From positions 54,011-118,010 of the forward strand of contig CAYSVM010000001.1 in assembly GCA_964434605.1 (NCBI GenBank): a stretch of DNA of 64,000 bases. Direction: 5' to 3'. Positions within the stretch are counted from its first letter, which is position 1. Each line of letters starts with the position of its first letter. The stretch comes from an uncultured Candidatus Saccharibacteria bacterium. Lineage in GTDB: Bacteria; Patescibacteriota; Kazan-3B-28. Under the pieces are notes generated by a model that did not search any database, was not told the DNA's origin, and saw nothing but the letters and a program-made list of their open reading frames with translations. Positions 103 to 61,031 of this stretch are shown piece after piece. A program made the position numbers and the translations under genes.

Positions 103-1176
103 CTAATTAATTTCCTTGGCTAATTGGCGAATAACATCCTCAAGGGTTTTAACGTTGACCTTCCCCCAAGACCATTTGGCTAGTTTTGCATAGATGTTAG
201 CATCACGACGAGGTAATAGCTCCACTCCGGAGATAGACTTTTTAACAACTCCTTCCAAAGCATCAGCCACTGGAGCATCGGCCCAGAACTGTGGCCCTCC
301 ACCTTCAAAATCTGGGTCAATATGCAACATAATGGTTGCCTTATGGCGAGGCTGGGTGCCGATATAAATATTGAGATACTTCGATGTTCTCTTGGCGGTT
401 ACCCCCAATTCACCAAAGTCACCCCTAAGAATTGAGTTAAACAGCTGAAGATATTCCTGGATCTTGGCAGAACGACCAAAGGCAGACAGAAAATCTTCGT
501 CCGCAGGAATATCTAATGGTTTGGACTTGGCAGTTACATCCTTCTTGGTGGCAGCCCCAAATAACTTAGGTATGACAATTTCAGTGCTGTCATGTTTGTA
601 ATATTCTAGTTCAACAGCATAGATATCGAACTTGCTGTTCTGATTGAGGTAGACAATTAGATCTTTCAGACGATCTTCCAGTGAGTCCATCAAGACAACA
701 AACTTGTAATTACTATCATCCAAGTGGGTGCGGACAGTATCCCAGAGCTGTTGAGCTTCAGCTTCACTTAGGCCCAACTCTTGTTGCATCCGCTCGAACA
801 GCCCGGTTTGAAAGTGGGCACGGGTAGTTTGTTCTATCGTGGCGGTAAATTGCTCCCAATCGGTGTCGTGTTTCCAAAGCGATGCTCCATAGTCCAGAAC
901 CTGGGCAATAACTCTACGCTTATCGGCATTGCGATAGAGCTTGGTTTCGATCAGATAAATATCACCGTCGGTATCGATGGCAATAGCATCAATGGGGCCG
1001 CTACTAGTCATATATTCACGGACTAGGATCAACGGCCGAACATTCTCTTTGATATCGTAAAGCGGAACCACTTCGGGGTTCTCGTAGATGTATTTCTGCA
1101 AAGAATCTTCAAGATCGAATTTGGACTGTTCGACCTTGTGAGCCTTTTTGCCTGGTTGGGTAATAATGATGGCCAT
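103..1176 (-). CDS. PD-(D/E)XK nuclease-fold protein (NucS/RecB-like nuclease domain at N-terminus, uncharacterised C-terminal domain)
   Basis: 357-aa ORF. The motif 'VREYMTSSGPIDAIAIDTDGDIYLIETKL...VIAQVLDY' matches the RE..G.ID..A.D..G...IE.K...V.QL..Y signature of NucS-like and restriction-endonuclease-like nucleases. The C-terminal 170 aa are unassigned. Confidence 0.45.
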   Translation of the reverse strand: MAIIITQPGKKAHKVEQSKFDLEDSLQKYIYENPEVVPLYDIKENVRPLILVREYMTSSGPIDAIAIDTDGDIYLIETKLYRNADKRRVIAQVLDYGASLWKHDTDWEQFTATIEQTTRAHFQTGLFERMQQELGLSEAEAQQLWDTVRTHLDDSNYKFVVLMDSLEDRLKDLIVYLNQNSKFDIYAVELEYYKHDSTEIVIPKLFGAATKKDVTAKSKPLDIPADEDFLSAFGRSAKIQEYLQLFNSILRGDFGELGVTAKRTSKYLNIYIGTQPRHKATIMLHIDPDFEGGGPQFWADAPVADALEGVVKKSISGVELLPRRDANIYAKLAKWSWGKVNVKTLEDVIRQLAKEIN

Positions 1177-1249
1177 AGCTTCGAGTTATACTACCAGCTG
1201 TGGCCTGCCGACCTTTTGATGAATTATTCAAAAAGGGGCAGACCTCACG

Positions 1250-1480
1250 CTTAGTCAACCCGAAACCTCTGGCCCGAAGGCTGAGCATTACGGTAAGCAG
1301 AGCATCTGCCCGTCTTTGACCGCAATGCGGTTTGACGAGAATACTGCTTCTGCTTCGGGCCTACTAAAAATACAAACTTTAAAGGTTTCGGGTTGACGAG
1401 GCCATCATAACATAAAACCGCCCTCTGGGAAGGGGTTTTCCGCTTCTAGACCCAACTAACGCACTTGGGTCGCTTTGCTC
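1250..1480. ncRNA. Candidate structured RNA of unknown class in a 520-bp non-coding gap
   Basis: Perfect 14-bp inverted repeat gtcaacccgaaacc (1254-1267) with ggtttcgggttgac (1384-1397) encloses a 9-bp inverted repeat ggcccgaag (1271-1279) with cttcgggcc (1353-1361). Further local hairpins at gcag..ctgc 1297-1309, ccgc..gcgg 1320-1330 and gacccaa..ttgggtc about 1454-1476. The gap is GC-richer than the surrounding DNA and has no ORF. Confidence 0.3.
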
Positions 1481-1696
1481 GCGCACTGGTTGGCTCAACA
1501 GCTCGGTCTGGATTGGTGCCCCAAGGAGATAATTAGGACCTTTCGAGACGGCATTGGGGTATCTAGGTCAATTATAGAGCCTTAAAGAGAAAATAGACAA
1601 ATGAGATAGTGGCAAGGGGTCTGTCTTGCTATGGATTTTAAGCAGGCTTTGTGACGTAATAACTGACTAACTTAAAAAATTAAAGACAATCCCTTA

Positions 1697-2419
1697 TCAG
1701 AATATAACCGGGGTCATAGGATCCCGCCGAATAGTTGATTTACTAGCTGTGCTTGATTTGGTGTCAAAGAGACGCAAGATTTCTATTTGAGTTTTCAATC
1801 CGGGAATCCAACTAGCAGGTAGAGACCCATCTTCGATGTACTTACTCAGATTGTGAATCAGTCTAGTAAAATCTCTCTTTGGATTCCTGCTAATCGATCC
1901 ACGCACGAGTCTTAGTGATAATGCAATGTCACTTTGCTGCTGAGCGGTATAGGATTTACCCAAAATCTTCATCTGGGATTGAGTGGGACCTCCGATACCC
2001 TTTTCGATTGCCGACCTAACCTCAGATTCTGAAAGTCCATTCTCTTTTGCAAAATCTTTGATAGCCTTCTTGGTAAACTCGGAGTCAAGAGTCGCGCCTG
2101 TCCACCATGGCTCTTCATAAATTTTTCTACACAGACCTTCTGTTGTAGCGGTTACATCGTCCTCGATTACTCCTTTGGGACAGTTAGCTTTACTTGGTGG
2201 TAAACATTTGCCAGTAGAGTCTTCACAGTAAAGTGTTCCCGAATAGAATTCAGGACTATAGCAATTACCATATTTGTCGCAATCCTCCGGAAACATTTTC
2301 TGAACTGAGGATCCATAAACTAAAACTGAGCTAGGGTCTTCAACACAACTGATGATTTTCCCTTGAGCTCCATCTTCAACAACTGGGAAAAACCCAATCG
2401 GGCAGATTTGATTAGACAA
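1697..2419 (-). CDS. Hypothetical protein with a Cys-rich N-terminal half (about 10 Cys in 90 aa)
   Basis: 240-aa ORF with no recognisable catalytic motif. It lies in an AT-richer block with three other unknown ORFs on the same strand. Confidence 0.5.
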   Translation of the reverse strand: MSNQICPIGFFPVVEDGAQGKIISCVEDPSSVLVYGSSVQKMFPEDCDKYGNCYSPEFYSGTLYCEDSTGKCLPPSKANCPKGVIEDDVTATTEGLCRKIYEEPWWTGATLDSEFTKKAIKDFAKENGLSESEVRSAIEKGIGGPTQSQMKILGKSYTAQQQSDIALSLRLVRGSISRNPKRDFTRLIHNLSKYIEDGSLPASWIPGLKTQIEILRLFDTKSSTASKSTIRRDPMTPVIF

Positions 2420-2454
2420 CTGACTCTAAAGGTTATTGTCAGTAGGTTTTTTCT

Positions 2455-2796
2455 TTAATAATTCAGACAACTGCTCGCACCTTTATAGCGATTCTCATAA
2501 TCTTGTTTTAATTTTTCCTGACATGCTTGGCGGGAAATCGATGCACCCCAGCAGGGGTGACTAGTATCGTTCTTAGCATTGATATAGGCGTTAAACATCC
2601 AGTAGTCTCTTCCTGATTGCAGAGTACCAAAATCCCCTCTAGCCAACATTGCTTCATCAATCGCCTTTTGAACTTTGGGGTCATCATAAGACTTCCCTCT
2701 AATAGACGAGTTAGGGCCCATTTTGAGGTGTTGGTACATCTGGAACCTGGCCGATTGAGCCCTATAGGCATCATGGGCACGATCATAAAAATCCAC
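2455..2796 (-). CDS. Hypothetical protein
   Basis: 113-aa ORF co-directional with neighbours. A 92-aa ORF in another frame overlaps it, so the frame call is uncertain. Confidence 0.4.
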   Translation of the reverse strand: MDFYDRAHDAYRAQSARFQMYQHLKMGPNSSIRGKSYDDPKVQKAIDEAMLARGDFGTLQSGRDYWMFNAYINAKNDTSHPCWGASISRQACQEKLKQDYENRYKGASSCLNY

Positions 2797-2803
2797 GCCT
2801 CTA

Positions 2804-4099
2804 TTATTGATGAAACCAGCGCCAGATTTGCTCTTTCATTTCGTCTCGTTCTGCACGGGTAATATCTCCTTGGCGGTATTTTTTATCAGCATCTTTTAAA
2901 CCCGCAAAATATTTATCGAGCCTAGTCCGTTGAGGGCGAGAAGAAGATTGGGCGTTAAACTTATCTATGTTACCCGCCGTAACCTTTTTCCAGCCCCGCT
3001 TTTGCGCCTCCTCTTCAGTAACACAATTAGCAACCTGAGTTGGTTTGTCGTTACCTTCTTTCCAGACGAAACCTTTCTGTTTGCCCCTTACTGTTTTTGC
3101 AATCTTCTCCGCCTCTTTTGTGGTTACACGGTGAGACGGCAGTTTTTGCATCTCCGCTTCAGCCATTGACCATTGGCTGGCGTTCTCTCTAATGGCTTTA
3201 TCAAATTCTCGAATCTTTTCCCCAGCGAGTTCTTTCTTTTCGTCTATAATTCCGACACCTTTTTCTTTTAATAAATCTACCGAGAACATATCAATGGCAT
3301 CTGCGTCTACATATTTGTTTATGATTGCATCTGCCTCACCCCAAGTCATAGATTTAGTGGAAAATTTGTTATTTTCCCTCTTTTCGGCAATCCCGAGTTT
3401 TTTTAATAAACCTCCCCAGGACCTATCAGGTATAAGCACCGCACCCTCAATCCTAGTTCTAGAATTATCCATAGACCGAAAACTTTTCATCTCTTCAATT
3501 AGCGAGGAAAGATTAAAATTCAATTTGTCCAGTCTTTCGTTGTGCTGCTTTAATACGTTGCTATCGGTTGTCCTGGAGATTATTTTTTCAATTTCATTTA
3601 TTGCTTTAATGTTAGAAGAAATACGTGATTTGAAATTGTTAATCCGTAAATCCCCTCTCAGCAAAAAAGTAAAAGCATCGTTTAAAGAATCTCTTTGGCT
3701 TCTCAAATCTTCCCCCATAGTCGTGATTTTATCCACAACCTTCTGAACTTCGGTGTTGTGAGTTTTTACAGCTTCGGTTTCTTGTGCCTTTAAAGCGTAA
3801 AGGTTACCAACACTGCTTTCTTCTGGACATAGTCCTTTACCGTCTATCGAAATAGGTAGGTTATTGTAAAAACCAAGATTGGTCTCATCTCCAACAATCT
3901 TGTAATCGCGACCCCCGGTGAGAGCCCGGTATTGAGCATCCGTCAGCTGATCGGGCCCATAATACTTTGTTCCCCAAGCGAACACAGGCAAAGGGATATT
4001 AAACAAAAAGATAACCAAAAAAAGACTAACCCAAAAACAACTTTTTTGTTTATTTGAAAAATTACTCAGTAACGATGACCTGTTCATAGGTACCTTCAC
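2804..4099 (-). CDS. Hypothetical membrane-anchored or secreted protein with coiled-coil regions
   Basis: 431 aa with an N-terminal hydrophobic segment 'CFWVSLFLVIFLFNIPLPVFAWG' followed by a long charged helical region. No enzymatic motif seen. Confidence 0.55.
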   Translation of the reverse strand: MKVPMNRSSLLSNFSNKQKSCFWVSLFLVIFLFNIPLPVFAWGTKYYGPDQLTDAQYRALTGGRDYKIVGDETNLGFYNNLPISIDGKGLCPEESSVGNLYALKAQETEAVKTHNTEVQKVVDKITTMGEDLRSQRDSLNDAFTFLLRGDLRINNFKSRISSNIKAINEIEKIISRTTDSNVLKQHNERLDKLNFNLSSLIEEMKSFRSMDNSRTRIEGAVLIPDRSWGGLLKKLGIAEKRENNKFSTKSMTWGEADAIINKYVDADAIDMFSVDLLKEKGVGIIDEKKELAGEKIREFDKAIRENASQWSMAEAEMQKLPSHRVTTKEAEKIAKTVRGKQKGFVWKEGNDKPTQVANCVTEEEAQKRGWKKVTAGNIDKFNAQSSSRPQRTRLDKYFAGLKDADKKYRQGDITRAERDEMKEQIWRWFHQ

Positions 4100-4343
4100 T
4101 TTCTCTCAGAATAAGAAAAAGATTCATACTAGATAGCGCCAATTCACTCATGAGCGTTTGGCTGACCATAGGCGGCAGGGACGTTGCACTAACTACCCCG
4201 ATATTATGTTCATCACGTGGTCTTTCAGTCTGGATTGAATACGCAAAAGCCAAAGAGGCGGCAAAAACGACAACAATCCCTAAAAATATATATAAAGGAT
4301 AAAATATTTTAGAACTAGAAGATGTGGTCTTGATATTTTTCAT
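4062..4343 (-). CDS. Small single-pass membrane protein (hypothetical)
   Basis: 93-aa ORF with TM segment 'IFYPLYIFLGIVVVFAASLAFAY'. It overlaps the start of the downstream ORF by 38 nt. Confidence 0.4.
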   Translation of the reverse strand: MKNIKTTSSSSKIFYPLYIFLGIVVVFAASLAFAYSIQTERPRDEHNIGVVSATSLPPMVSQTLMSELALSSMNLFLILRESEGTYEQVIVTE

Positions 4344-4711
4344 CCTACCTCAAAAAAACTACCCTAATTACACAATATATCAAAATCAGTAGAAAGTCAA
4401 GCTTGGTAGACTCTAGACCCCACCGCAGATTGGAAAATAATTATGTACCAAGACCAACTATTTTGCTATTTGGGGCAAAATTTTCTCAACCACTACAACA
4501 GAGAACCCACACTACAATTAACCAAATATCCATCACTGGCTGGGACGGTAGGACGATTTCCCGGGTGCTCCGGGGGCCCTGCGATTCAGCTGCAACAAGG
4601 AATGACACAAAACTATAGAGCAGCTGAACGGACGCACCCAAGCCTGACGGCAGGTTCAAATCCATGATACTGCGGCCAAGAAAAAATCAGGGCCAACTCC
4701 TTGCTTTTTCT

Positions 4712-4788
4712 CTTGGCTCCGGGGGTGGGATTCGAACCCACGGTCCATCGATTAACAGTCGATTGCTTTACCGCTAAGCTACCCCGGA
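4712..4788 (-). tRNA. tRNA-Asn (GTT)
   Basis: Reverse complement reads UCCGGGGUAGCUUAGCGGUAAAGCAAUCGACUGUUAAUCGAUGGACCGUGGGUUCGAAUCCCACCCCCGGAGCCA. Anticodon loop is cU-GUU-aa, T-loop is GGTTCGAATCC, and the CCA is encoded. Confidence 0.85.
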
Positions 4789-4825
4789 ATGTGCGTCACC
4801 AATAAGATAACGCGGTAATTGTAAT

Positions 4826-6421
4826 TTACTTCAAATAATCTTTCAACTTCTTACTATCCTTACTCTTCCTCAGCTTCATCAAAGCCTTAGCCTCAATCTG
4901 ACGAATACGCTCACGAGTAACTCCAAATTCCTTTCCCACTTCCTCTAGTGTATGCGCCCATTCACCACCTAAACCAAAACGTAACTTTAGGATCTTCTGC
5001 TCTCTTGGGCTAAGCAAATCCAATACTCCGCCCACATCTCCCTTCAGAAGTTCGTAAGCCGAAGCTTCTTCTGGCGTAAGGTTATCTTCATCTGGAATAA
5101 AGTCACCCAGAAGTGAATCATCCTCATCTCCCACCGATTTCTCCAAAGATACCGTTTCTTGGGAGATTTTTAGGATATGGTTTACTTTCTCTACTTCCAA
5201 TTCCATTTCATTAGCAATCTCTTCTGGAGTAGGCTCACGTCCTAGTTCCTGTACTAGTTGTCTCTGGGTACGTGCCAAACGATTCATCGTTTCCACCATA
5301 TGGACAGGAATACGGATAGTTCTTGCCTGATCTGCAATAGCCCTAGTAATTGCCTGTCTAATCCACCAGGTAGCATAGGTAGAGAATTTGAATCCTCTTC
5401 GCCAGTCAAATTTCTCGACTGCCTTCATTAGACCAATGTTTCCTTCTTGAATAAGATCGAGAAGAGACAAGCCTCGGCCAATATATTTCTTGGCAATAGA
5501 CACTACTAGTCGTAAGTTTGCTTCTGCTAGTTGTTTAGAAGCCAACACATCTCCCTGTTCTACTCTTTTTGCCAAAGCAACTTCTTCTTCTGCTCGAAGC
5601 AAAGGAACCTGTCCTATTTCTTTCAAATACATCCTTACCGAGTCATCGCTAATGTCGTCTTCTAGCAAATGTGGATCTATATTCACATCCAACTTGTTCC
5701 GCATCTTTTTCTTGGTCGCCTCAGTTTTCTTGCTCATCTTACTGTCTTCTGCCAACGACCAGATTAGATCATCTCGAACATCAACAACTTCGATTCCTTC
5801 TTCCATTAAGATCTGGAATAGTAAATCGAGCATTTCAATCTGCTTCTCTACATTTGGAACCGCCTGTTCTAACTCCTGCTGGGTAATAAAGCCCTTTGCC
5901 TTTCCAGCCGAAACTAAGTCAGCTACCGGCCCCGGCAAGTTCCCTATACCAGAGTCTTTTCGTTTGCACTTCTTTCCAGCTTCCTCTTCATCCTCTATCT
6001 CAAACATCTTAAGCTTTGGATCTTCTGGCCTTGGTTCACCAAGCAATTCTTCCTTTTCCGATTTCTTCTTTTTGACAACATTCTTTACAGCAAGCTTCTT
6101 AGCTTTCTTTACTACTTTCTTACCAGTCTTTTTAACCTGCTTTTTTACCAAGCGCTTCTTTGCCACCTTCTTCACTATCTTTTTCGGTTTTTTCTTCAAA
6201 ACCGGTTTGCGTTTAGCAACCCGTTTGGAGACAACTTTCTTACGGACCAATTTCTTGGCTGGTTTTTTGGCTGGTTTTTTCTTCCCCATTTTTCTTACAA
6301 CCTTTTTTGCGATTTTTTTTGCCGGCTTTTTCCCGACGGTCGCCCGCTTGCGAACCACCGCCCGTTTACCCGCCGTGCGGGAGGCTGCTTTCTTTTTCGG
6401 CGCGGATTTTTTTCTCGCCAT
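4826..6421 (-). CDS. rpoD: RNA polymerase sigma-70 factor RpoD with a lysine-rich N-terminal extension
   Basis: Region 2 to 4 motifs are present: '[27 protein letters not shown]' and '[27 protein letters not shown]'. The first 140 aa or so are AKKPAKK-type repeats. Confidence 0.95.
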
Positions 6422-6445
6422 AGAAAGTCAGTTAAATACTATTAT

Positions 6446-8176
6446 CTATAATTGGTTTAATTCTTTTAGAAGCTCTGCTACTCTTGCCTGATCATTCTTC
6501 GTTTCCGCCTCGGCAATTGCTGCTGCCAGTTCATTCCTTTTAATAGTAGCAGAACGATTCACCAGCAGATCTAGATAGAACTTCATCTCTCTTTCTAGAT
6601 CTTCCATCGAAACTTCTGTGTAATTCTGTTCTAAAACCAGCAGTAATTCCAAAGCAGATGTCTTGGCTGGTTCGGGGAGCCGTTTCAAAAAATCTTCAGC
6701 CTGGAAGATAGCGTTGGAAGTATACCAAGATTGGATTGCATCGTAAATGGTATTTGCCAGTCCAGAAGCCCATTTTATCCTGCCACCAACCTCAAGTAAT
6801 CGGGGGATAAGCTTGGGGGACAACATAGGTAGCATTACCGCCCTCTCCTCCAGCCAGGTCGGAGACAGATTTTCCACCTGGGTAGGACTAGCTTTTGGTT
6901 CGGTTTTTGCTGGCTGGGGTGCTCGCTTTAGTGTGTCGTATAAAATTGCTGGTTCAACATCTACGGTACGAGCTAATCTTTTAATATAAAAATCTTTCTC
7001 GACTGGATCGATTAGCTTGTTTATAACTGCCAGTAGTTCTCTTGCCAGCTGTTTCTTGTCCTCCAGTTTTTTTACATCATACTTACGTGTTGCAATATCG
7101 AAATAGAAGTCCATTACCGGTACTGCTTCTGTAATCGCCTTTTTCCAGTACTCTGGGTTTTCTTTAATCATCGAATCGGGATCTTTGTATTCCCCTAACA
7201 AAACTACCTTCATTGCCATGTCAAACTTATTGGAAAGTTCCAATGCCCTCCGAGTCGCTTCCCCACCTGCCGCATCTGCATCCAGCGACAATACCAGTTC
7301 TCTACAATATCGATTCAACAACCGTAATTGCTGTTCAGTCAGTGCAGTACCAGAAATCCCCACTACATTTTTTACTCCAGCCTGATGCGAGCTAATTGTG
7401 TCCATCTGTCCTTCCACCAACACCACTCTACCTTCTTGCTGAATTGCTTGTTTTGCCAAATGCAAGCCATATAACAGCTCGCTCTTATGGAACAACGGGG
7501 TTTCTGGTGAATTCAGATATTTGGGGATTCCATTTGGATCCAGCACTCGACCGGTAAACGCAACTACCCGACCCAGACTATCCCAAAGCGGGAACATTAC
7601 TCGTCCAGAAAATTTATCCCACAAAAAGTTTCCCTTGCGCACCGCCAATCCAGCTTTCTCAATATCCCCCTCTTTCGCTCCCTTACGAATTAGAATATCT
7701 ATTAACGCCCTCCCCGACTTCGGCGCAAATCCAATCCGAAACTCTGCCAAAGTAGCGGGACTCAATCCCCGACCCACCATGTATTCTTTTGCCGCTCTAC
7801 CTTCGCTGGTCTCAACTAAAACTTTTTCGTAGAACTTCGCCGCCGCCTCATTTATATTCATCAAAATCTTACGAGCATCTATTCCAGATTGCGGTACCTT
7901 AGAAAGCTGGACACCGGTTTGTTCCGCCAACAACTGCAAGGCTTCTGCAAACCCTATTCCTTCTTTCTCCATTACAAACTTGAATACATCTCCACCTCTT
8001 CCACAACCAAAACAATGCCAAATCTGCTTGTCTGGACTAACCATGAAAGATGATGTTTTCTCTACATGAAAAGGACACAAACCCTTGTAGTTCACCCCCG
8101 CTTTTTTGAGCGGCAAATACCGGCCAATGAAATCGACCAAATCTATCTTATTCTTTATTTCATCTAAGTCGGTCAT
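6446..8176 (-). CDS. dnaG: DNA primase DnaG
   Basis: CHC2 zinc finger 'CPFHVEKTSSFMVSPDKQIWHCFGCGRGGD' and a TOPRIM region. It is adjacent to rpoD, as in the classic macromolecular-synthesis operon. Confidence 0.95.
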   Translation of the reverse strand: MTDLDEIKNKIDLVDFIGRYLPLKKAGVNYKGLCPFHVEKTSSFMVSPDKQIWHCFGCGRGGDVFKFVMEKEGIGFAEALQLLAEQTGVQLSKVPQSGIDARKILMNINEAAAKFYEKVLVETSEGRAAKEYMVGRGLSPATLAEFRIGFAPKSGRALIDILIRKGAKEGDIEKAGLAVRKGNFLWDKFSGRVMFPLWDSLGRVVAFTGRVLDPNGIPKYLNSPETPLFHKSELLYGLHLAKQAIQQEGRVVLVEGQMDTISSHQAGVKNVVGISGTALTEQQLRLLNRYCRELVLSLDADAAGGEATRRALELSNKFDMAMKVVLLGEYKDPDSMIKENPEYWKKAITEAVPVMDFYFDIATRKYDVKKLEDKKQLARELLAVINKLIDPVEKDFYIKRLARTVDVEPAILYDTLKRAPQPAKTEPKASPTQVENLSPTWLEERAVMLPMLSPKLIPRLLEVGGRIKWASGLANTIYDAIQSWYTSNAIFQAEDFLKRLPEPAKTSALELLLVLEQNYTEVSMEDLEREMKFYLDLLVNRSATIKRNELAAAIAEAETKNDQARVAELLKELNQL

Positions 8177-11491: not shown

Positions 11492-12585
11492 TGTCTCTTA
11501 AAATCGGCATCGTTGGTCTTCCCAACGTCGGAAAATCCACCCTCTTCAACGCTCTACTTGGTGTAAACCAAGCAGCTGCTTCTAATTTTCCCTTCTGTAC
11601 AATCGAACCTAATACTGGAATCGTCCCTGTTCCAGACAGCAGATTAGCCAAACTCGCAGAACTGGAACACTCCGCACAAACAGTACCCGCTACTGTTGAA
11701 TTTGTAGATATTGCTGGACTTGTAAAGGGCGCTTCTCAGGGCGAGGGTTTGGGAAACCAATTTCTTTCCCATATCCGCGAGGTAGATGCCATTGTCGAGG
11801 TAGTACGTCTTTTCATAGATAGTTATGTAACCCATGTCAGCGGTGACATCTCCCCCAAAGATGACATTGAAATAATTAACACAGAGCTAATTTTAGCCGA
11901 CCTCCAGAATATCGAAAAACGCCTTCCCAAAGAAGAGAAGGCTGCTCGTGGTGATGCCAAACTCCAACCCAAAGTTAATTTCTTCATCCGAGTCCAAAAA
12001 CATTTAGAAGAAGGTTTTTCCGCTCGCTCTCTCGCTCTTTCGGGAGACGAATCAGTTTGGCTAAAAGAACTTCAGCTCATCTCCGCCAAACCCATCCTAT
12101 ATGTTGCTAACATCAGTGGAAGTCAAATGAGCAACACTGATTCCTTGCTCGCCCCCCTTCATGAATTGGCCACTCGAGATAAGGCTGAAATTATCGCCAT
12201 CGATGCCAAAACCGAAGCCGAAGTTACTGAACTAACCCTAGAGGAACGCGTCGACTATCTTCATGAAGCTGAAATTTCTGAATCTGGTTTAGATAAAGTT
12301 ATCCGAGCCGGGTACAGCCTCCTTGGACTGATTACCTTCTTTACCGCAGGAGAAAAAGAAGCCCGTGGATGGACTATTCATGCAGGCGATACTGCTCCGA
12401 TTGCCGCTGGTACAATTCATACTGATTTTACTAAAGGATTCATCCGCGCTGAAACCGTCGCTTACGATGACTTCATAAACAACGGTGGCTGGACTGGCGC
12501 TAAACAAGCTGGCAAAGTTAGAAGTGAAGGTAAGGAATATGTCGTCAAAGATGGAGACGTGCTTCTCTTCCGCTTTAATGTGTAG
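11491..12585 (+). CDS. ychF: Ribosome-binding ATPase YchF (Obg-family GTPase)
   Basis: 'KIGIVGLPNVGKSTLFNAL' P-loop, G-domain and C-terminal TGS domain, 364 aa. Confidence 0.95.
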   Translation: MSLKIGIVGLPNVGKSTLFNALLGVNQAAASNFPFCTIEPNTGIVPVPDSRLAKLAELEHSAQTVPATVEFVDIAGLVKGASQGEGLGNQFLSHIREVDAIVEVVRLFIDSYVTHVSGDISPKDDIEIINTELILADLQNIEKRLPKEEKAARGDAKLQPKVNFFIRVQKHLEEGFSARSLALSGDESVWLKELQLISAKPILYVANISGSQMSNTDSLLAPLHELATRDKAEIIAIDAKTEAEVTELTLEERVDYLHEAEISESGLDKVIRAGYSLLGLITFFTAGEKEARGWTIHAGDTAPIAAGTIHTDFTKGFIRAETVAYDDFINNGGWTGAKQAGKVRSEGKEYVVKDGDVLLFRFNV

Positions 12586-13669
12586 ACATCGCCTTCACGG
12601 CAGCAACTGCTTTTGATATCACCCACTTCCAAACTGTTACCAACCATCCACTTCTCTGAGTGGGACTTTCTTTAATAACCGACGGAGCTACCGGAGTGGT
12701 CTTAGTCGGTGCTTTCTTCGCGATTGATTGACCAGTCGAAGATCCCGTCCGTACTGTTACTTTAATATTAACCTTCGTATTCGGAAACCAAGTAATGTAT
12801 TCCGCTACCATAGCGAACTGCGTACTATAAACTCCTGGGCTTAGTGGAGCCTCTATCTTCAGATTGAACCAACCCGTCCCTCTCGTATCCAGTTTTCCTA
12901 AACCATCAGCGGATTCAATCACTGCTGCTCGGTTAAACTTAATCCATTCATTACTAGATAGCGTACTAGGACGATCATCTACTACTCCCAACCTTATCGG
13001 ATTGTTTGTTCCAGCCCCATACCAAACCGCATTACCAACATTAGTTACATCAACTCTAATTACACTCTGCTCACCCGGTAATAGGGTTACCGCATAAGTC
13101 TGCTTCAAAATTCTAGCCCTATAATCAGCTGCTTTCCAAATTGTAGTAGGTGGAGTTGGTAAAATAGGCTGTGGCTCATACGTAATACCACCACCACCTC
13201 CACCACCTCCCGGTAGCTGTGGAATAACTGCTGCTACAAGACTAAACACAGTATCGCTCACATCGTTTATAGACGGATCTCCTACTTTACTAACCCGAAT
13301 ACTAGCAGTTGTAGTAACAGAACCAGTTGCTGTCCAAGAATAAGTTCCATCATTAGCAGTTGATGCAGTAATCGTTTCCCAGCTTCCTCCAACCGAACGT
13401 TGTAATTCAATTTTTACATCTGTAATCGTAAGAGTGACAGTCCAAGTAATATTCTGACTAGTTCCAATAGTCCAACTTTCCCCACCATTCGGAGATGAAA
13501 CCGAAATTACTTCTCCACCCGGTGGCAAAACTGTCACCGATAAAGTTAATGCTCCACTCGTACCTGCTTGTGCCCACAGGCTCCCTAACCCAACTATCCC
13601 TATCGCTAAAACAGCACACAGCTCGCGCTCTAGCCATTGCAACAGGTTGTGTAACTTGGGATTAATCAT
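12575..13669 (-). CDS. Secreted surface protein, tandem paralog A (Ig-like N-domain, poly-Gly linker, C-terminal conserved beta-sandwich repeat)
   Basis: Signal peptide '...LLQWLERELCAVLAIGIVGLGSLWAQA', the 'PNGGESWTIGTSQNITW' domain, a 'GGGGGGGG' linker, and a C-terminal repeat shared with 13683-15023 and the SpoIID protein. Confidence 0.7.
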   Translation of the reverse strand: MINPKLHNLLQWLERELCAVLAIGIVGLGSLWAQAGTSGALTLSVTVLPPGGEVISVSSPNGGESWTIGTSQNITWTVTLTITDVKIELQRSVGGSWETITASTANDGTYSWTATGSVTTTASIRVSKVGDPSINDVSDTVFSLVAAVIPQLPGGGGGGGGITYEPQPILPTPPTTIWKAADYRARILKQTYAVTLLPGEQSVIRVDVTNVGNAVWYGAGTNNPIRLGVVDDRPSTLSSNEWIKFNRAAVIESADGLGKLDTRGTGWFNLKIEAPLSPGVYSTQFAMVAEYITWFPNTKVNIKVTVRTGSSTGQSIAKKAPTKTTPVAPSVIKESPTQRSGWLVTVWKWVISKAVAAVKAMSTH

Positions 13670-13682
13670 TAGGTTATATTAC

Positions 13683-15023
13683 TTACCGACTCCATAGACC
13701 CTTAAATTTACCCAGCAATTGGTTGAACAAACCGCCAAGATTTCTTAAAAATCTTTCAGTTTGGTCGTAAAATTCCGCTGGTCCAGCAGGAAGATTTGGC
13801 ATCGTAAAGATTGAACCAGTCTTTCCTCCAGTTGACTTTTGCACTGTAGAAGTGCTGACCGGTTTAGGCAACACCACAAATTCCCAACTCACCGTCCCAT
13901 CCATCCATTGCAAATACTCGGCTACTGGCTGAAAATATTCCACATATGTACCAGCCTTTTGAGGAGCCCTGACTTTGAATACAAATCTCCCTATCTCTCC
14001 CGGGCTAATAACTTGCTTGCCTTTCAATCCTGGTTTCTGAACATTAGCGGGACGATTGCGTAAAATCCAGCTGCTTCTCCAAAAAACGCTTTTCCTATCA
14101 CGAGGCTGCGAAGTCCCTAATCGGGTTGTATTTCTGCCGTAAGTCCGCCATTCGGTCGTTCCAGTATTTAAAAGCTTCACCCATACTTCTACATCCCGGC
14201 CAGCCTTCAGTTGCACTCTAGATTCCGACTGATTAATTAACTTAGCGGCATAATATAACCCCTCAACTTTTATCTTCTTGTCCCAAGTTGCCAATGTGCC
14301 ATTACTGTTATACACAGCTAAGATATATTCACCTGGACGAAAACCTTTTGACACCTTTAGCCGAACATGAGAATGATTGCCCGTCCATAACATTCTCAAA
14401 TTAGAATCCCCCAACTTAAAAACTGTATCGTATTCAAAGTTGGAACCAAACACATCCAATATCACTTCTGTCGTGTTCACAAATGAACTTGGAGTCACAT
14501 TCAGAAGAGTGGGGTAGAACACAAAAGTACCATTACCGCCACCACCAGGAGTCGATATTACAGGGGGAACCATTGCATCAGTAATAGCAAATACCCCATT
14601 ACTAACATCCATAATGGCTGGGTTTGTGGCATCACTGATTTTAACTATTGCAGTAGTAGTAACTGCTCCAGTAACCACCCATGGATAACTAGCCGGAATA
14701 ACTGCTACTGATGCCACGATTGTTTCCCAAGCGCCACCAGTAGTTCGTTGCAGCTCCAGTTTAACATCGGTTATCCCTGCACCCGCAACCCATTCGATAT
14801 TGTGTGAAGTTCCGATCTTCCAGCTTTCACCTCCATTAGGTACATTAAGCTGAAGCGTACCAGGTGCAGGAAGGATACTAATAGAAGTCGCTACATCAAT
14901 GGTTGTTCTCGCTTGAGCAGCCCACACCAAGCCACCGACTAAAACTAGAAATGCTAAAATCGTACACAGCTCACGCTCTAGCCATTGCAATAATTTATGA
15001 CGATTGAAGCTGATTTTCATCAA
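13683..15023 (-). CDS. Secreted surface protein, tandem paralog B
   Basis: Same N-terminal leader 'KLLQWLERELCTILAFLVLVGGLVWAAQA', the 'PNGGESWKIGTSHNIEW' domain, 'GGGGNG' linkers, and a C-terminal 'SxFWRSSWILRNRP...PGE.GRFVFKVRAP..GTYVEYFQPVAEY..W' repeat. Confidence 0.7.
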   Translation of the reverse strand: MMKISFNRHKLLQWLERELCTILAFLVLVGGLVWAAQARTTIDVATSISILPAPGTLQLNVPNGGESWKIGTSHNIEWVAGAGITDVKLELQRTTGGAWETIVASVAVIPASYPWVVTGAVTTTAIVKISDATNPAIMDVSNGVFAITDAMVPPVISTPGGGGNGTFVFYPTLLNVTPSSFVNTTEVILDVFGSNFEYDTVFKLGDSNLRMLWTGNHSHVRLKVSKGFRPGEYILAVYNSNGTLATWDKKIKVEGLYYAAKLINQSESRVQLKAGRDVEVWVKLLNTGTTEWRTYGRNTTRLGTSQPRDRKSVFWRSSWILRNRPANVQKPGLKGKQVISPGEIGRFVFKVRAPQKAGTYVEYFQPVAEYLQWMDGTVSWEFVVLPKPVSTSTVQKSTGGKTGSIFTMPNLPAGPAEFYDQTERFLRNLGGLFNQLLGKFKGLWSR

Positions 15024-15109
15024 GCTGTTTTTGTTTTAATTTTATTGTCCATTATACCACAAAATCTGCTTTCAGTCAAGAAAGTAGTCTTTTAATCAAC
15101 TACTGTAAT

Positions 15110-36213: not shown

Positions 36214-36909
36214 CTAACCCCTCGCCACTACGACTCCCCAGACCGCCTTGGCCCCAGCGTTTTTGAGGGCTTGTGCTGCTGCCTCCAGAGTTGCTCCTGT
36301 AGTCATAACATCATCTACTAACAAGACCTTCTCTCCCCGTAAGTCCGCAGAAGACGAAAATGCTCTGTACACATTAGCCTGTCGCTCGAGTTGACTCAGC
36401 TTCGTCTGGGTCACAGTTGCACACACCTGTCTTAGCCAATTCGGCCGATACTCCACCCCTAGATATCTGGCAAGTTTTTTTGCAAGAAGATCTGTTTGGT
36501 TAAACCCTCTTCCGTGAAACTTGCTTGTATGCAAAGGCATAGGAACAACTACCCACCCTTCCCATTCCTGAGTCACAACTGCTTGAAATAAAATCCAGGA
36601 AAGAATTGTCGCTAAATCAGTCAGCCCGTTGTATTTAAGTTTGTGAACTAACTCTCGCATTGGTCCACCTTCGTAACTTGCCGCTACAATAACACCATCT
36701 AGATCGAGATACTTCTCACACTTCTCGCATGTTTTTCCATTCGCAGAAGCTCTACCACATCGACAACACACCTGTTCTCGCACCACAGAAATTTTCTCGG
36801 CACAATCCGTACACAACCAACCTCCTACCGTATTGCATCCTACACAAAAAGCCGGTGCAATTGCATCTCGAACAAATCTAACTAATTTACCTGGAACCGA
36901 TAGTAACAC
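36214..36909 (-). CDS. comFC: ComF family phosphoribosyltransferase (ComFC-like)
   Basis: N-terminal Cys4 'CVGCN...CTDCAEKI' and the C-terminal PRTase motif 'VLLVDDVMTTGATL'. Confidence 0.8.
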   Translation of the reverse strand: MLLSVPGKLVRFVRDAIAPAFCVGCNTVGGWLCTDCAEKISVVREQVCCRCGRASANGKTCEKCEKYLDLDGVIVAASYEGGPMRELVHKLKYNGLTDLATILSWILFQAVVTQEWEGWVVVPMPLHTSKFHGRGFNQTDLLAKKLARYLGVEYRPNWLRQVCATVTQTKLSQLERQANVYRAFSSSADLRGEKVLLVDDVMTTGATLEAAAQALKNAGAKAVWGVVVARG

Positions 36910-50173: not shown

Positions 50174-50710
50174 ATGGCAGTAAAAATCCCACAAGATGTT
50201 ACCCGTGAAGATAAGCTGATTGGTCCGCTTACCTTAAAGCAGTTCCTTTATTTACTTGCCGGTAGCTCAATCATCTTCATCACCTACCAATCCACTATGA
50301 GCTGGCTCTTATTTATCGTTGTCAGCCTCATCGTAGGTATCCTGTCCCTCTTACTTGCATTCGGAAAGATCAACGGCCGTCCCTTTGGTGTATTCCTGCT
50401 AAACCTACTTCACTTTATTCGTTCATCCAAGAATTTGGTTTGGCACAAAGAACATCGAGCTAAAGTAAAGAACATAAAAGTAAGTGCTTCGGATATCAAA
50501 GACACAAAAACAGAACTTGCAGATCGTCAGTCTGGAAAACAAATCAAAATGCAGATCGAACAGCTCGCCCATATCCTAGATACGGGTGGTACAATGAACA
50601 GTGAACAAACAGAATTTACTGCTACATCAATCAGCACTATTACTCCCCCAAAAACCACAGTCGAACCTACCGACATCGAAGATGTACTTAAAGATGTTGA
50701 CCAATCCTAA
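50174..50710 (+). CDS. VirB3/PrgI-like small membrane protein
   Basis: 'DKLIGPLTLKQFLYLLAGSSIIF' followed by a second TM. This matches the PrgI/VirB3 family pattern, and it sits immediately upstream of VirB4. Confidence 0.55.
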   Translation: MAVKIPQDVTREDKLIGPLTLKQFLYLLAGSSIIFITYQSTMSWLLFIVVSLIVGILSLLLAFGKINGRPFGVFLLNLLHFIRSSKNLVWHKEHRAKVKNIKVSASDIKDTKTELADRQSGKQIKMQIEQLAHILDTGGTMNSEQTEFTATSISTITPPKTTVEPTDIEDVLKDVDQS

Positions 50711-50716
50711 ACCAAT

Positions 50717-51394
50717 ATGGCACGCAAACAACCAAAATTCAAAAGTACCCAACAGTTCCTTCCTGTCCAAGAAATTAGGGATGGGATAGTGGTCTTAAAA
50801 GGCGGTGGATACCGTACAGTGCTAATGGTCAACGCCATTAACTTCAGCCTGAAATCAGCAGACGAACAACAGGCCTTACTAAACAGCTACCAGAACTTTC
50901 TCAATGGTCTTTCTTTCCCTATCCAAATCGTGATGCAATCTCGCACACTCGACCTAACCAACTACCTAACCAGCCTCGAACAAGCAGCTAGTAAGCAGAC
51001 TAACGACTTGCTTCGTACCCAAACAAACGAATACACCACTTTTGTTCGCGATCTTGTTGGGGTTGCCAACATCATGAGCAAAACCTTTTACGTAATCGTC
51101 CCCCACAACGAGATGCCCCTACTTACCGGTGGATTCCACCTATTTGGAAAAAAGAAAAGCTCTCCTAGCCGTCAGTTTGAGGAAATAAAAACTGCTATGA
51201 GCGAAAAAACCAACCTCATCTCAAGCGGACTAGCTAGTCTAGGATTAAACAATGTTCAACTAAATACCCAAGAGCTAATCGAGCTTTTCTATACCAGCTA
51301 CAACAGTGATTCTGCTCGTCGGCAAAAGCTCTTTTCCGTAAGCAATGTCGATGCTTCTATTATCCGTAACGTAAAAGATGCGGAGGCCCAATAA
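50717..51394 (+). CDS. Stand-alone VirB4 N-terminal-domain-like protein
   Basis: 225 aa. 'FLPVQEIRDGIVVLKGGGYRTVLMVNAINFSLKSADEQQALLNSYQNFLNGLSFPIQIVMQSR' resembles the N-terminal region of VirB4/TraE-type ATPases. Its stop overlaps the next ATG (TAATG). Confidence 0.5.
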   Translation: MARKQPKFKSTQQFLPVQEIRDGIVVLKGGGYRTVLMVNAINFSLKSADEQQALLNSYQNFLNGLSFPIQIVMQSRTLDLTNYLTSLEQAASKQTNDLLRTQTNEYTTFVRDLVGVANIMSKTFYVIVPHNEMPLLTGGFHLFGKKKSSPSRQFEEIKTAMSEKTNLISSGLASLGLNNVQLNTQELIELFYTSYNSDSARRQKLFSVSNVDASIIRNVKDAEAQ

Positions 51395-53184: not shown

Positions 53185-53186
53185 TT

Positions 53187-54458: not shown

Positions 54459-54460
54459 CC

Positions 54461-61030: not shown

Positions 61031-61031
61031 T

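What the first reader, a model, noticed from the sequence alone, without database searches (positions are those of the whole stretch)
12575..15023. Tandem paralogous surface proteins with a conserved 'LLQWLERELC' N-terminal leader and poly-Gly linkers
The two adjacent genes encode proteins whose first 20 residues or so contain an identical motif, (K/H)xLLQWLERELC, immediately before the hydrophobic signal segment ending AQA or AAQA. The nucleotides are 26 of 27 identical (acacagctc[g/a]cgctctagccattgcaa on the plus strand), although the rest of the genes have diverged. A conserved charged motif N-terminal to the h-region is reminiscent of specialised signal-peptide classes such as YSIRK-type, and could mark a lineage-specific sorting or secretion signal. 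Both proteins also carry unusual G8 or G4-5 linkers between domains.
Basis: seen in the sequence. Interest (0 to 1): 0.5.

Follow-up and report, generated by a model that had tools for sequence, protein, structure and literature searches.

The report
Family-specific conserved leader on CPR surface proteins
Two neighbouring genes of a tiny uncultured (Patescibacteria/CPR) bacterium encode bead-on-a-string surface proteins whose export leader is unusually well conserved, but that leader belongs to this one protein family only and is not a general sorting signal.

Summary
Genes A (12575-13669, minus) and B (13683-15020/15023, minus) both carry LLQWLERELC, and the 27-nt blocks are 26/27 identical. 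The motif is the local form of a family-wide leader, M-x-K-Q-I-x-K-…-L-E-x-E-L-x-[AT]-V-L-A-…-G-…-[AVTS]-x-A. That leader is as conserved (48%; core 59%) as the best folded domain.

A profile of the leader run against 1.84 billion representative proteins, plus degenerate DNA scans of genomes and metagenomes, found about 55 true instances. All are in Patescibacteria (Kazan-like lineage). All sit at an ORF N-terminus, or internally in two fusion proteins. All are on the same protein family, at one syntenic locus between PIN/TRAM and YchF. Other secreted proteins in the window use ordinary signal peptides.

So this is neither a modular YSIRK-like sorting class nor a recent 5' duplication: A-type and B-type orthologues exist in four genomes. 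The best reading is a Sec-type leader with a strictly conserved signal-peptidase-I site, on Ig1–polyGly–(TIG)–FW–C-terminal-helix surface proteins. Relatives differ at synonymous sites, so the constraint is on the protein. The nucleotide near-identity in the window is, at most, short-tract gene conversion. Why the ExEL junction is conserved remains unknown.

The parts
15051..15079 (-). Promoter-like site upstream of gene B: TTGACT, 17 nt, TATAAT with a TG extended -10. Probably drives a B-A operon, since the two genes are only 13 nt apart.
   Evidence: 11 of 12 consensus matches, TG present; sequence seen. This is a consensus match only; function was not tested.
13683..15023 (-). Gene B, 445/446 aa (ATG at 15020, TTG at 15023). 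Layout: leader, Ig1, poly-Gly hinge, TIG-like Ig, FW-like domain, Ser/Thr/Pro spacer, C-terminal amphipathic helix.
   Evidence: AF2 mean pLDDT 73; domain boundaries taken from the model.
14910..15020 (-). B leader, aa 1-37: basic n-region, LLQWLERELC junction, hydrophobic core, AQA followed by R.
   Evidence: family logo; continuous helix 4-37, then a disordered stretch 38-48.
14964..14993 (-). LLQWLERELC motif of B (aa 10-19). The 27-nt near-identical block is 14964-14990.
14580..14855 (-). B Ig1 domain (aa 56-147), the PNGGESW…ELQR…W type, Kre9/KNH-like. It is the most conserved folded domain (59% mean pairwise identity).
   Evidence: (homologues carry PF10342).
14526..14570 (-). B flexible hinge (aa 151-165) containing GGGG-N-G; the GGGG run is at 14535-14546.
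   Evidence: (pLDDT below 50), (family-invariant G columns).
14262..14510 (-). B second Ig-like (TIG/IPT-like) domain, aa 171-253. It is absent from gene A.
   Evidence: Orthologue P0003 carries PF01833. P0004 gives a near-cutoff hit to CoaZ_rpt_PGGG.
13869..14246 (-). B FW-like domain (NBR1 / N_BRCA1_IG-like), aa 259-384.
   Evidence: PF16158, E = 0.0069, below threshold; 33-41% identity to the three FW repeats of the SpoIID protein at 36887-39184, which passes Pfam's cut-off..
13689..13763 (-). B C-terminal amphipathic helix (aa 420-444, …FYDQTERFLRNLGGLFNQLLGKFKGLW), preceded by a disordered Ser/Thr/Pro spacer that contains KSTGG.
12575..13669 (-). Gene A, 364 aa. Layout: leader, Ig1, G8 hinge, FW-like domain, spacer, C-terminal amphipathic helix. 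Its 3' end overlaps the convergent ychF gene by 11 nt.
   Evidence: A-type orthologues are P0015, P0044 and P0053.
13565..13669 (-). A leader, aa 1-35, ending in AQA followed by G.
13616..13645 (-). LLQWLERELC motif of A (aa 9-18). The 27-nt block is 13616-13642.
13232..13510 (-). A Ig1 domain (aa 54-146).
   Evidence: (PF10342 at 18.8 bits, below threshold).
13187..13210 (-). A G8 run (aa 154-161), inside the hinge at aa 147-176.
12755..13138 (-). A FW-like domain (aa 178-305).
   Evidence: Alignment to B.
12584..12661 (-). A C-terminal amphipathic helix (…GWLVTVWKWVISKAVAAVKAMS), conserved in the A-type orthologues.

Best explanation
LLQWLERELC is the sub-clade version of a conserved 35-40-residue N-terminal leader. 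The leader belongs to one vertically inherited family of cell-surface proteins in a Kazan-like lineage of Patescibacteria (CPR).

Proposed mechanism, with each step marked:
(1) B and A are co-transcribed from a strong sigma-70-type promoter (inferred).
(2) The leader forms one long helix. It has a lysine-striped n-region (K3, K7, K/Q11, R/K15) that stays on the cytoplasmic side, an invariant L-E-x-E-L junction, a 16-18-residue hydrophobic core (V20, L21, A22 and G29 conserved), and a c-region that always has A at -1 and A/V/T/S at -3. The sequence pattern is shown; the helix is an AF2 prediction.
(3) This is a Sec-type signal, inserted N-in and most likely cut by signal peptidase I after AxA (inferred from the -3/-1 rule; not demonstrated).
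(4) The mature protein is a flexible string: Ser/Thr stalk, Ig1, poly-Gly hinge, a TIG domain in B only, an FW domain, a spacer, and a C-terminal amphipathic helix (a true TM segment with a basic tail in some relatives). That helix keeps the protein at the membrane. The FW module is shared with a SpoIID-type cell-wall enzyme in the same window and probably contacts the wall (inferred).
(5) The leader is family-specific, not a modular sorting tag. Its unusual conservation implies an extra, still unknown role before or instead of cleavage, such as helix packing or timing of release.
(6) The near-identical nucleotides in A and B reflect protein-level constraint, possibly with short-tract gene conversion. 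They are not a nucleic-acid element.
For: Family-wide conservation of the leader. E14 and E16 are each present in 53 of 55 rows, L17 and A22 in 55 of 55, L21 in 53 of 55, and A35 in 46 of 48. Position -3 is V, T, A or S in all 48.

The leader is as conserved as the folded domains: 48% for the leader and 59% for the core motif, against 59% for Ig1, 45% for FW and 29% for TIG.

Specificity. The profile search of 1.84e9 representatives gave 25 hits at E <= 1e-3. Twenty-two are genuine and all belong to this family. The genome scan gave 16 of 16 genuine hits, and the metagenome scan 19 of 19, at an ORF N-terminus and followed by PNGGE-W. Nothing else in the window scores.

One syntenic locus, ClpC - PIN/TRAM - family - YchF/EF-P, is seen in 12 further loci, with 1 to 3 or more copies.

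Ordinary signal peptides occur on other exported proteins of the window. These include an FW-domain protein whose FW repeats are 33-41% identical to B's.

Structure: helix 4-37, three beta-sandwich domains, a disordered poly-Gly hinge and a C-terminal helix, with generic multi-Ig extracellular matches.

Synonymous sites differ among relatives. There is no Rfam hit.

Fusion proteins P0061 and P0064 place the leader directly after a C-terminal TM segment of an upstream unit. This fits an in-to-out membrane-spanning leader.
Against: No signal-peptide predictor or experiment was available, so cleavage is inferred only from the -3/-1 rule. From general knowledge, cleaved signal peptides usually evolve fast, so the high conservation here fits a retained membrane helix at least as well. 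Two acidic residues directly before the hydrophobic core are atypical for efficient Sec signals. The E16-to-A35 span of about 19 residues is long enough to be a transmembrane anchor. The profile and pattern searches would miss a much more degenerate version of the motif on other proteins. The wall-binding role proposed for FW and the anchoring role of the C-terminal helix are inferences.
Confidence: 0.6

Rival explanations
1. Uncleaved signal-anchor. The leader stays as an N-terminal transmembrane helix (a type II membrane protein). The K-striped, ExE-containing juxtamembrane helix lies on the cytoplasmic face and the conserved hydrophobic face packs against a partner or against itself. The protein is then held at both ends, by the N-terminal TM and the C-terminal helix.
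For: The leader is as conserved as the folded domains. AF2 predicts a continuous helix 4-37. The hydrophobic span of about 19 residues is long enough to cross a membrane. In fusions P0061 and P0064 the leader works as an internal TM segment after another TM. A22 and G29 are conserved small residues seven positions apart.
Against: Position -1 is A in 46 of 48 sequences and position -3 is always V, T, A or S, while -2 varies freely and is often charged. That is the signature of a signal-peptidase-I site and has no obvious reason to be kept in a plain anchor. A disordered Ser/Thr stretch follows immediately.
Confidence: 0.25
2. One reading: a lineage-specific specialised class of signal peptide, analogous to YSIRK-G/S, that directs several surface proteins to a particular secretion site or pathway.
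For: A conserved motif sits at the n/h boundary of the signal peptide of surface proteins in a monoderm-like organism. FemAB and Mur ligase genes are in the window. Such conservation needs some functional reason.
Against: Every genuine instance found in 1.84e9 representative proteins and in the two DNA collections is on one protein family at one locus. There are 1 to 3 copies per genome. The 560-kb chromosome OY968788.1 matches the pattern only at the tandem pair. Other exported proteins in the window lack it. Pfam and NCBIfam signal models do not match.
Confidence: 0.07
3. The identity is only a by-product of recent duplication or gene conversion of the 5' ends, with no functional constraint on the motif.
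For: Codon identity is 7 of 9 inside the motif against a 35% background. In Kazan RBG_13_50_9 the leaders of the two tandem genes share 78% identical codons, against 36-41% elsewhere. The sister genome RA.bin10 also has near-identical motif DNA in both genes.
Against: The peptide motif is kept in single-copy genomes and across proteins of 32-40% identity, with different synonymous codons. The rest of each leader groups with its orthologue, not with its neighbour: A's leader is 76% identical to P0015's but 55% to B's. OY968788 shows no excess codon identity. Conversion can therefore explain the nucleotide identity in some genomes, but not the motif.
Confidence: 0.04
4. Divergent type IV pilin-like (class III) leader. 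The conserved Glu followed by E-L-x-x-V-L-A resembles the E5 hydrophobic helix of pilins. The helix would then be retained and used for assembly into a fibre.
For: The segment E16-L-x-[AT]-V-L-A-[VI] resembles pilin E5-L-L-V-V-I-A-I (my own comparison). A PilB-type ATPase is encoded in the window.
Against: There is no conserved G/A at the position that would be -1 (Q, K, R, E or G are seen), and no F/M at +1. Neither N_methyl nor TIGR02532 matches, even at E <= 10. The conserved AxA at the far end of the helix points to SPase I. The mature part is a string of Ig domains, not a pilin head.
Confidence: 0.03
5. The 27-nt block is a nucleic-acid element (an RNA structure or a protein-binding site) embedded in the coding sequence.
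For: 26 of 27 nt are identical between paralogues that are 47.5% identical over aligned codons.
Against: Relatives keep the peptide but vary the third codon positions. There is no Rfam match. The excess in codon identity is weak (P about 0.011, post hoc).
Confidence: 0.01

Closest known systems
Sec-type (SPase I) signal peptides of monoderm surface proteins
   Same: Tripartite layout with a basic n-region, a hydrophobic core and a c-region obeying the -3/-1 rule (AxA). The length of 35-37 residues is typical of Gram-positive-type signals. A flexible stalk and extracellular Ig-like domains follow.
   Different: Sequence conservation is as high as in the folded domains. There is an invariant acidic E-x-E-L junction immediately before the hydrophobic core, and conserved V-L-A and G positions inside it. 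Cleavage has not been demonstrated.
YSIRK-G/S signal peptides (PF04650 / TIGR01168) of staphylococcal and streptococcal LPXTG proteins
   Same: A conserved motif inside the signal peptide of surface proteins, located at the n/h boundary, with a conserved Gly further along the hydrophobic core.
   Different: From general knowledge, YSIRK occurs on many non-homologous proteins per genome and directs septal secretion. Here the motif is confined to one family at one locus, the sequence is unrelated, and no database model matches.
Extended signal peptide region (ESPR) of type V secreted proteins
   Same: A conserved N-terminal extension in front of an otherwise ordinary signal peptide.
   Different: From general knowledge, ESPR is a proteobacterial feature of very large autotransporter and TPS proteins, with a different consensus. 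Here the extension is short (about 12 residues), the organism is a CPR bacterium, and the proteins are 360-570 aa.
Type IV pilin class III signal / N-terminal helix (GFxxxE)
   Same: A conserved Glu followed by a conserved hydrophobic helix (E-L-x-x-V-L-A).
   Different: There is no G at -1 or F at +1 for a prepilin peptidase site. There are two Glu residues. An SPase I-type AxA sits at the end of the helix. No N_methyl model hit.
Bacterial multi-Ig surface proteins with NBR1-like FW (PF16158), TIG (PF01833) and Kre9/KNH-like (PF10342) domains; 'choice-of-anchor Z' PGGG repeat (NF058597)
   Same: The mature part is a string of beta-sandwich domains joined by Gly-rich hinges. The FW domain is 33-41% identical to those of a SpoIID-domain protein in the same window.
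   Different: The particular combination, leader + Ig1 + polyG + (TIG) + FW + C-terminal amphipathic helix, is unnamed ('hypothetical protein' in all sources seen). Most domain hits on the window proteins themselves are below threshold.

Membership tests
Sec/SPase I signal peptide | N-terminal basic n-region followed by an uninterrupted hydrophobic core of about 10-20 residues | tested here: met
   K/R/H occur at positions 3, 7, 11 and 15. The hydrophobic run covers positions 17-32. The Kyte-Doolittle 15-residue maximum is 2.45 for A and 2.78 for B.
Sec/SPase I signal peptide | Small uncharged residues at -3 and -1 of the cleavage site (AxA rule), and no Pro at +1 | tested here: met
   Position -1 is A in 46 of 48 sequences. 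Position -3 is V21/T13/A12/S2. Position +1 is mainly A/G/D/Q. AQA then G in A, and AQA then R in B.
Sec/SPase I signal peptide | Actual cleavage and export | not testable with these tools
   No SignalP or proteomics was available. Cleavage is inferred only.
YSIRK-G/S signal peptide class | YSIRK…G…S consensus in the signal peptide | tested here: not met
   The leader reads (L/I)KQI(Q/S)K…LExEL…. Pfam and NCBIfam scans of the leader peptides at E <= 10 returned no signal-peptide model.
YSIRK-G/S signal peptide class (or any modular sorting signal) | Presence on several non-homologous proteins within a genome | tested here: not met
   all genuine instances are on one family at one locus.
Type IV pilin class III signal | G (or A) at -1, F/M at +1 and E at +5, recognised by a prepilin peptidase | tested here: not met
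   Counting back from E16, position -1 is Q/K/R/E/G and +1 is W/L/I/V. No N_methyl or TIGR02532 hit.
Bacterial lipoprotein signal | Lipobox L-[ASTVI]-[GAS]-C at the end of the hydrophobic core | tested here: not met
   The Cys of LLQWLERELC precedes the hydrophobic core, and that position is variable (I14 V14 C9 L8).
Twin-arginine (Tat) signal | S/T-R-R-x-F-L-K motif in the n-region | tested here: not met
   No RR pair occurs in any leader. No TAT model hit.
Double-glycine (C39 peptidase) leader | LSxxELxxIxGG ending in a Gly-Gly cleavage site | tested here: not met
   E-L-x-x-V-L is followed by A-[VI], not GG.
N_BRCA1_IG / NBR1 FW domain (PF16158) | Match to the Pfam model above the gathering score | tested here: inconclusive
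   B scores 17.4 bits against a cut-off of 28. However, homologues P0004, P0006 and P0007 carry PF16158. B aa 250-383 is 33-41% identical (E = 2e-28) to the repeats of the window protein at 36887-39184, which scores 50.9 bits.
Kre9_KNH-like Ig domain (PF10342) | Match to the Pfam model above the gathering score | tested here: inconclusive
   A scores 18.8 bits and B 12.5 bits against a cut-off of 24.6. Many more distant homologues of this domain carry PF10342. AF2 gives a beta-sandwich.
Sortase (LPXTG) substrates | C-terminal LPXTG followed closely by a hydrophobic segment and a basic tail, with a sortase in the genome | tested here: inconclusive
   Roughly half of the family members listed have [LVIATS]-P-[ST]-T-G-G in the C-terminal part, about 40-60 aa from the C-terminus. 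P0058 has LPSTGG, then a TM segment, then RLKKNLAKH. But the spacer is about 25-30 aa, the same motif also precedes internal FW domains, window A lacks it and B has only KSTGG. No sortase was found among the window ORFs scanned. The rest of the genome was not available.

The most novel reading that the evidence does not exclude
The invariant L-E-x-E-L-x-[AT]-V-L-A leader is a dedicated recognition element for a lineage-specific step. Examples would be site-specific secretion, regulated release, or assembly of the tandem paralogues into a surface structure through a retained N-terminal helix. On this reading it is a new, single-family kind of sorting or assembly signal in ultra-small CPR bacteria, and the Ig1–polyG–FW proteins are a core, locus-fixed component of their host-contact surface.
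Probability: 0.12. Interest if true: 0.6.

Novelty: new variant of a known kind. Interest (0 to 1): 0.3.

Why it matters
CPR/Patescibacteria are mostly uncultured epibionts, and their surface proteins are presumed to mediate attachment to hosts. This work defines a small, unannotated surface-protein family fixed at one housekeeping locus in a Kazan-like lineage. Its export leader is as conserved as its folded domains. That gives a concrete target for asking how secretion or anchoring works in these cells, for example through the E-x-E-L junction, the AxA site, the C-terminal helix and the P-S-T-G-G motif. It also gives a cautionary example: a striking shared leader motif in two neighbouring genes turned out to be a family trait and not a proteome-wide sorting code.

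Tried and rejected
It then returned nothing at E <= 10. The same profile scores 60-73 bits on family members locally, so this was a limit of the word-index candidate step, not evidence of absence. The full HMMER scan replaced it.

(2) The nucleic-acid element idea was rejected. Synonymous sites vary in relatives and there is no Rfam hit.

(3) Lipobox, Tat, pilin, double-glycine, YSIRK and ESPR readings were each checked against the family logo and against Pfam/NCBIfam at E <= 10. All were rejected.

(4) I looked for canonical prepilins in the window as a contrast. None was found with a G[FM..][TS]xxE regex.

(5) The Foldseek PDB search gave only generic multi-Ig extracellular proteins such as plexin IPT, SbsB, SGBP-B and Hoc. 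No specific functional homologue emerged.

(6) Literature searches on Patescibacteria signal peptides and Ig-like surface proteins, and on Kazanbacteria, turned up nothing describing this family or leader in the listed titles and abstracts. No paper was read in full.

(7) A functional link to neighbouring genes was rejected. The flanks are housekeeping genes (ClpC, a YacL-like PIN/TRAM protein, YchF, EF-P) in every genome.

(8) A second structure prediction, for gene A, was not run. The alignment to B already defines its domains.

Full report
**What is in the sequence**

The region holds two adjacent minus-strand genes. Gene A is at 12575-13669 (364 aa). Gene B is at 13683-15023 (446 aa from TTG; 445 aa from the ATG at 15020). 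They are 13 nt apart. A near-consensus promoter-like site, TTGACT-17-TATAAT with a TG extension, lies at 15079-15051.

The two proteins are paralogues with 34% identity and E = 2e-50. B has an extra domain of about 85 residues.

Both proteins contain H-x-LLQWLERELC, at aa 9-18 of A and aa 10-19 of B. The 27-nt block occurs exactly twice in the 64-kb window with 26/27 identity, and no shuffle produced a match. The DNA on either side of it is diverged. Both hydrophobic segments end in AQA.

**The motif is one version of a family-wide leader**

Homologues are all 'hypothetical proteins' from Patescibacteria/CPR assemblies, including candidate division Kazan. They share the N-terminal 35-40 residues even when overall identity is only 32-40%.

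A logo from 55 distinct rows reads:

M-[LI]-K-Q-I-[QS]-K-x-[LIF]-[LWF]-[KQE]-[WLI]-L-E-[RKE]-E-L-x-[AT]-V-L-A-[VI]-x-[IL]-V-x-L-G-x-x-[WF]-[VTA]-x-A | [AGD]-[TS]

- E14 and E16 are each present in 53 of 55 rows, L17 and A22 in 55 of 55, and L21 in 53 of 55.
- The final A is present in 46 of 48 rows.
- Mean pairwise identity is 48% for the leader and 59% for its core. That equals Ig1 (59%) and exceeds FW (45%), TIG (29%) and the C-terminal helix (20%).

From general knowledge, that level of conservation is unusual for a signal peptide.

**Is it a modular sorting signal?**

I tested it in four ways.

1. A leader HMM searched against all ORFs of the window and two related loci scored only the family genes, at 60-70 bits. 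The next best score was 7.7 bits.
2. The same profile was run by full HMMER against 1.84 billion representative proteins. It gave 25 hits at E <= 1e-3. Three are low-complexity repeat proteins. The other 22 all belong to this family. P0052 lacks Ig1 but keeps the polyG, TIG, FW and C-terminal helix.
3. A degenerate DNA pattern for the leader (38.8 bits) was scanned over 185,579 species genomes. It gave 23 matches. Sixteen are genuine, all in Patescibacteria, all at an ORF N-terminus, and all followed by PNGGE[SD]W. Seven are chance hits in high-GC genomes. In the 560-kb chromosome OY968788.1 the only matches are the tandem pair.
4. The same pattern over metagenome contigs gave 19 genuine hits, all of the same kind, and 6 chance hits.

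Other exported proteins of the window have ordinary signal peptides. One is a SpoIID protein at 36887-39184 (MKKLITILGVFVLIAGGLLSLSSFVLAQG…). Its three FW repeats are 33-41% identical to B's FW domain.

The leader is therefore family-specific and not a proteome-wide class. No Pfam or NCBIfam model, including those for known signal types, matches it even at E <= 10.

**It is not a recent 5' duplication either**

In 12 further loci the family gene or genes sit in the same place. That place is downstream of ClpC and a YacL-like PIN/TRAM protein, and convergent with YchF, EF-P and SSB.

- Most genomes have one copy.
- The window, OY968788 and Kazan RBG_13_50_9 have two.
- Kazan GW2011 (CP011216) has three or more.

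A-type orthologues lack TIG and have the WLxTVWxW…KAVAAVKA tail. They occur in the window, RA.bin10, OY968788 and CP011216. So the A/B duplication is older than those lineages.

Apart from the motif, each leader resembles its orthologue more than its neighbour. A's leader is 76% identical to P0015's but 55% to B's.

**Nucleotide identity**

Relatives keep the peptide but change third codon positions: CTA/CTG/GTG, CGC/CGT/CGA/CGG, GAG/GAA and TGT/TGC. There is no Rfam match. The constraint is therefore on the protein.

In the window, 7 of 9 motif codons are identical against a 35% background (post-hoc P about 0.011). The Kazan RBG_13_50_9 pair shows 78% identical codons across the whole leader, against 36-41% elsewhere. 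OY968788 shows no excess. Occasional short-tract gene conversion between the tandem copies is the likeliest explanation for the extra DNA identity.

**What the proteins are**

AlphaFold2 on B with the family alignment gave mean pLDDT 73. The predicted elements are:

| Residues | Element |
|---|---|
| 4-37 | one continuous helix (the leader) |
| 38-48 | disordered Ser/Thr stretch |
| 56-147 | beta-sandwich, Ig1 |
| 151-165 | disordered poly-Gly hinge |
| 171-253 | beta-sandwich, TIG-like |
| 259-384 | beta-sandwich, FW-like |
| 389-419 | disordered spacer |
| 420-444 | C-terminal helix |

Foldseek finds only generic extracellular multi-Ig proteins. The window also encodes FemAB and a Mur ligase, a PrgI/VirB4-like secretion cluster and a PilB-type ATPase. 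This is consistent with a walled, monoderm-like CPR cell.

**Mechanism**

Shown:
- The tripartite leader.
- Strict -1 = A and -3 = A/V/T/S, with a free and often charged -2.
- An in-to-out topology implied by two natural fusions, P0061 and P0064. In these the leader follows the C-terminal TM segment of an upstream unit after a short basic loop.

Inferred:
- Sec-dependent insertion with the K-striped n-region inside.
- Cleavage by signal peptidase I after AxA.
- A mature protein held at the membrane by its C-terminal amphipathic helix. In P0057, P0058 and P0062 this is a true TM segment.
- FW possibly contacting the wall, by analogy with its use on the SpoIID enzyme.

Unknown: why L-E-x-E-L and V-L-A…G are invariant.

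The main rival is that the leader is not cleaved and acts as a conserved signal-anchor. Its conservation and its roughly 19-residue span allow this. The conserved AxA argues against it. I put cleavage at roughly 65-70%.

**Comparison with known systems**

It works like a Gram-positive-type Sec/SPI signal with a conserved extension. It fails the defining features of YSIRK, ESPR, Tat, lipoprotein, double-glycine and type IV pilin leaders (see the membership table). Literature searches found no description of the leader or the family in the titles and abstracts listed; no paper was read in full.

**Verdict**

The interpretation as a lineage-wide sorting class is not supported. This is an unannotated, family-specific conserved leader on a locus-fixed CPR surface-protein family. 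It counts as a new variant of a known kind and is of modest interest.

Noticed in passing
window 36887-39184 (minus): A 765-aa exported protein with an ordinary signal peptide, three NBR1-like FW (PF16158) repeats and a SpoIID domain. Its FW repeats are 33-41% identical to the FW domain of gene B. This suggests that FW is a wall-associated module in this organism.
   Followed up: partly
Family proteins, e.g. window B aa 394-399 (KSTGG); P0058 LPSTGG; P0006, P0007, P0009-P0014: A recurrent [LVIATP]-P-[ST]-T-G-G motif, resembling the sortase LPXTG motif. It lies in the C-terminal part in roughly half of the members listed, and also just before internal FW domains. P0058, P0062 and P0057 follow it with a true TM segment and a basic tail. 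No sortase was seen among the window ORFs scanned.
   Followed up: partly
P0061 (775 aa) and P0064 (928 aa): Natural fusions of two family units in one ORF. The leader of the second unit is internal and comes directly after the C-terminal TM segment of the first. This suggests that the tandem paralogues act together.
   Followed up: partly
L012 (CP011216.1, Kazan GW2011_GWA1_50_15) 1663-7174: The locus is expanded. It holds a 565-aa B-like gene, a 403-aa A-like gene, an unrelated-looking 726-aa ORF, and a 147-aa ORF with Ig1 similarity. The last has a degenerate leader, MNKLLQKGGLAVAVLATLVALMG, in which the ExE is replaced by KGG.
   Followed up: no
L006 / L037 (Kazan RBG_13_50_9) 653-3818: The leaders of the two tandem paralogues are 82% identical in protein over the first 40 residues and share 78% identical codons, while the rest of the genes share 36-41%. 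This looks like gene conversion confined to the 5' end.
   Followed up: partly
L004 (714-bp contig) and L013 (end of a 52-kb contig), isolate RA.bin10, the closest relative (ClpC 96% identical): The assembly of the sister genome breaks inside this locus. Gene B is cut off at a contig end and gene A's start sits alone on a 714-bp contig. This may be due to the repeated leader/Ig1 sequence or to strain variation.
   Followed up: no
window 50174-56113 (plus): A cluster encoding a PrgI-family protein, a VirB4/TraG-type P-loop ATPase (51394-53184), a membrane protein with a bacterial TSP3 repeat (53187-54458) and a PilB/T2SSE ATPase (54461-56113). It looks like a Gram-positive-type conjugation, secretion or pilus apparatus.
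   Followed up: no
window 60026-62375 (plus): FemAB-family peptidyltransferase and Mur ligase genes, pointing to peptidoglycan with an interpeptide bridge in this CPR genome.
   Followed up: no
L018, L021, L023, L019, L010, L014: In the more distant genomes, an ORF of about 183-199 aa (…FFARPTL.VA..L[IL]GK[VI]LVR…) sits between PIN/TRAM and the family gene. From memory it resembles 3-methyladenine DNA glycosylase. This was not tested.
   Followed up: no
Tool behaviour: The word-indexed protein search returned nothing for a 41-column leader profile, although that profile scores 60-73 bits on known members. Short hydrophobic profiles need the full HMMER scan.
   Followed up: yes
Family poly-Gly hinge; window 13187-13210 and 14535-14546: The length of the Gly run varies from none of four or more up to 11 among members. 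It is 8 in window A and 7 in its close orthologue P0044. The run is encoded by GGT/GGA repeats, so the hinge length may be evolutionarily labile.
   Followed up: no
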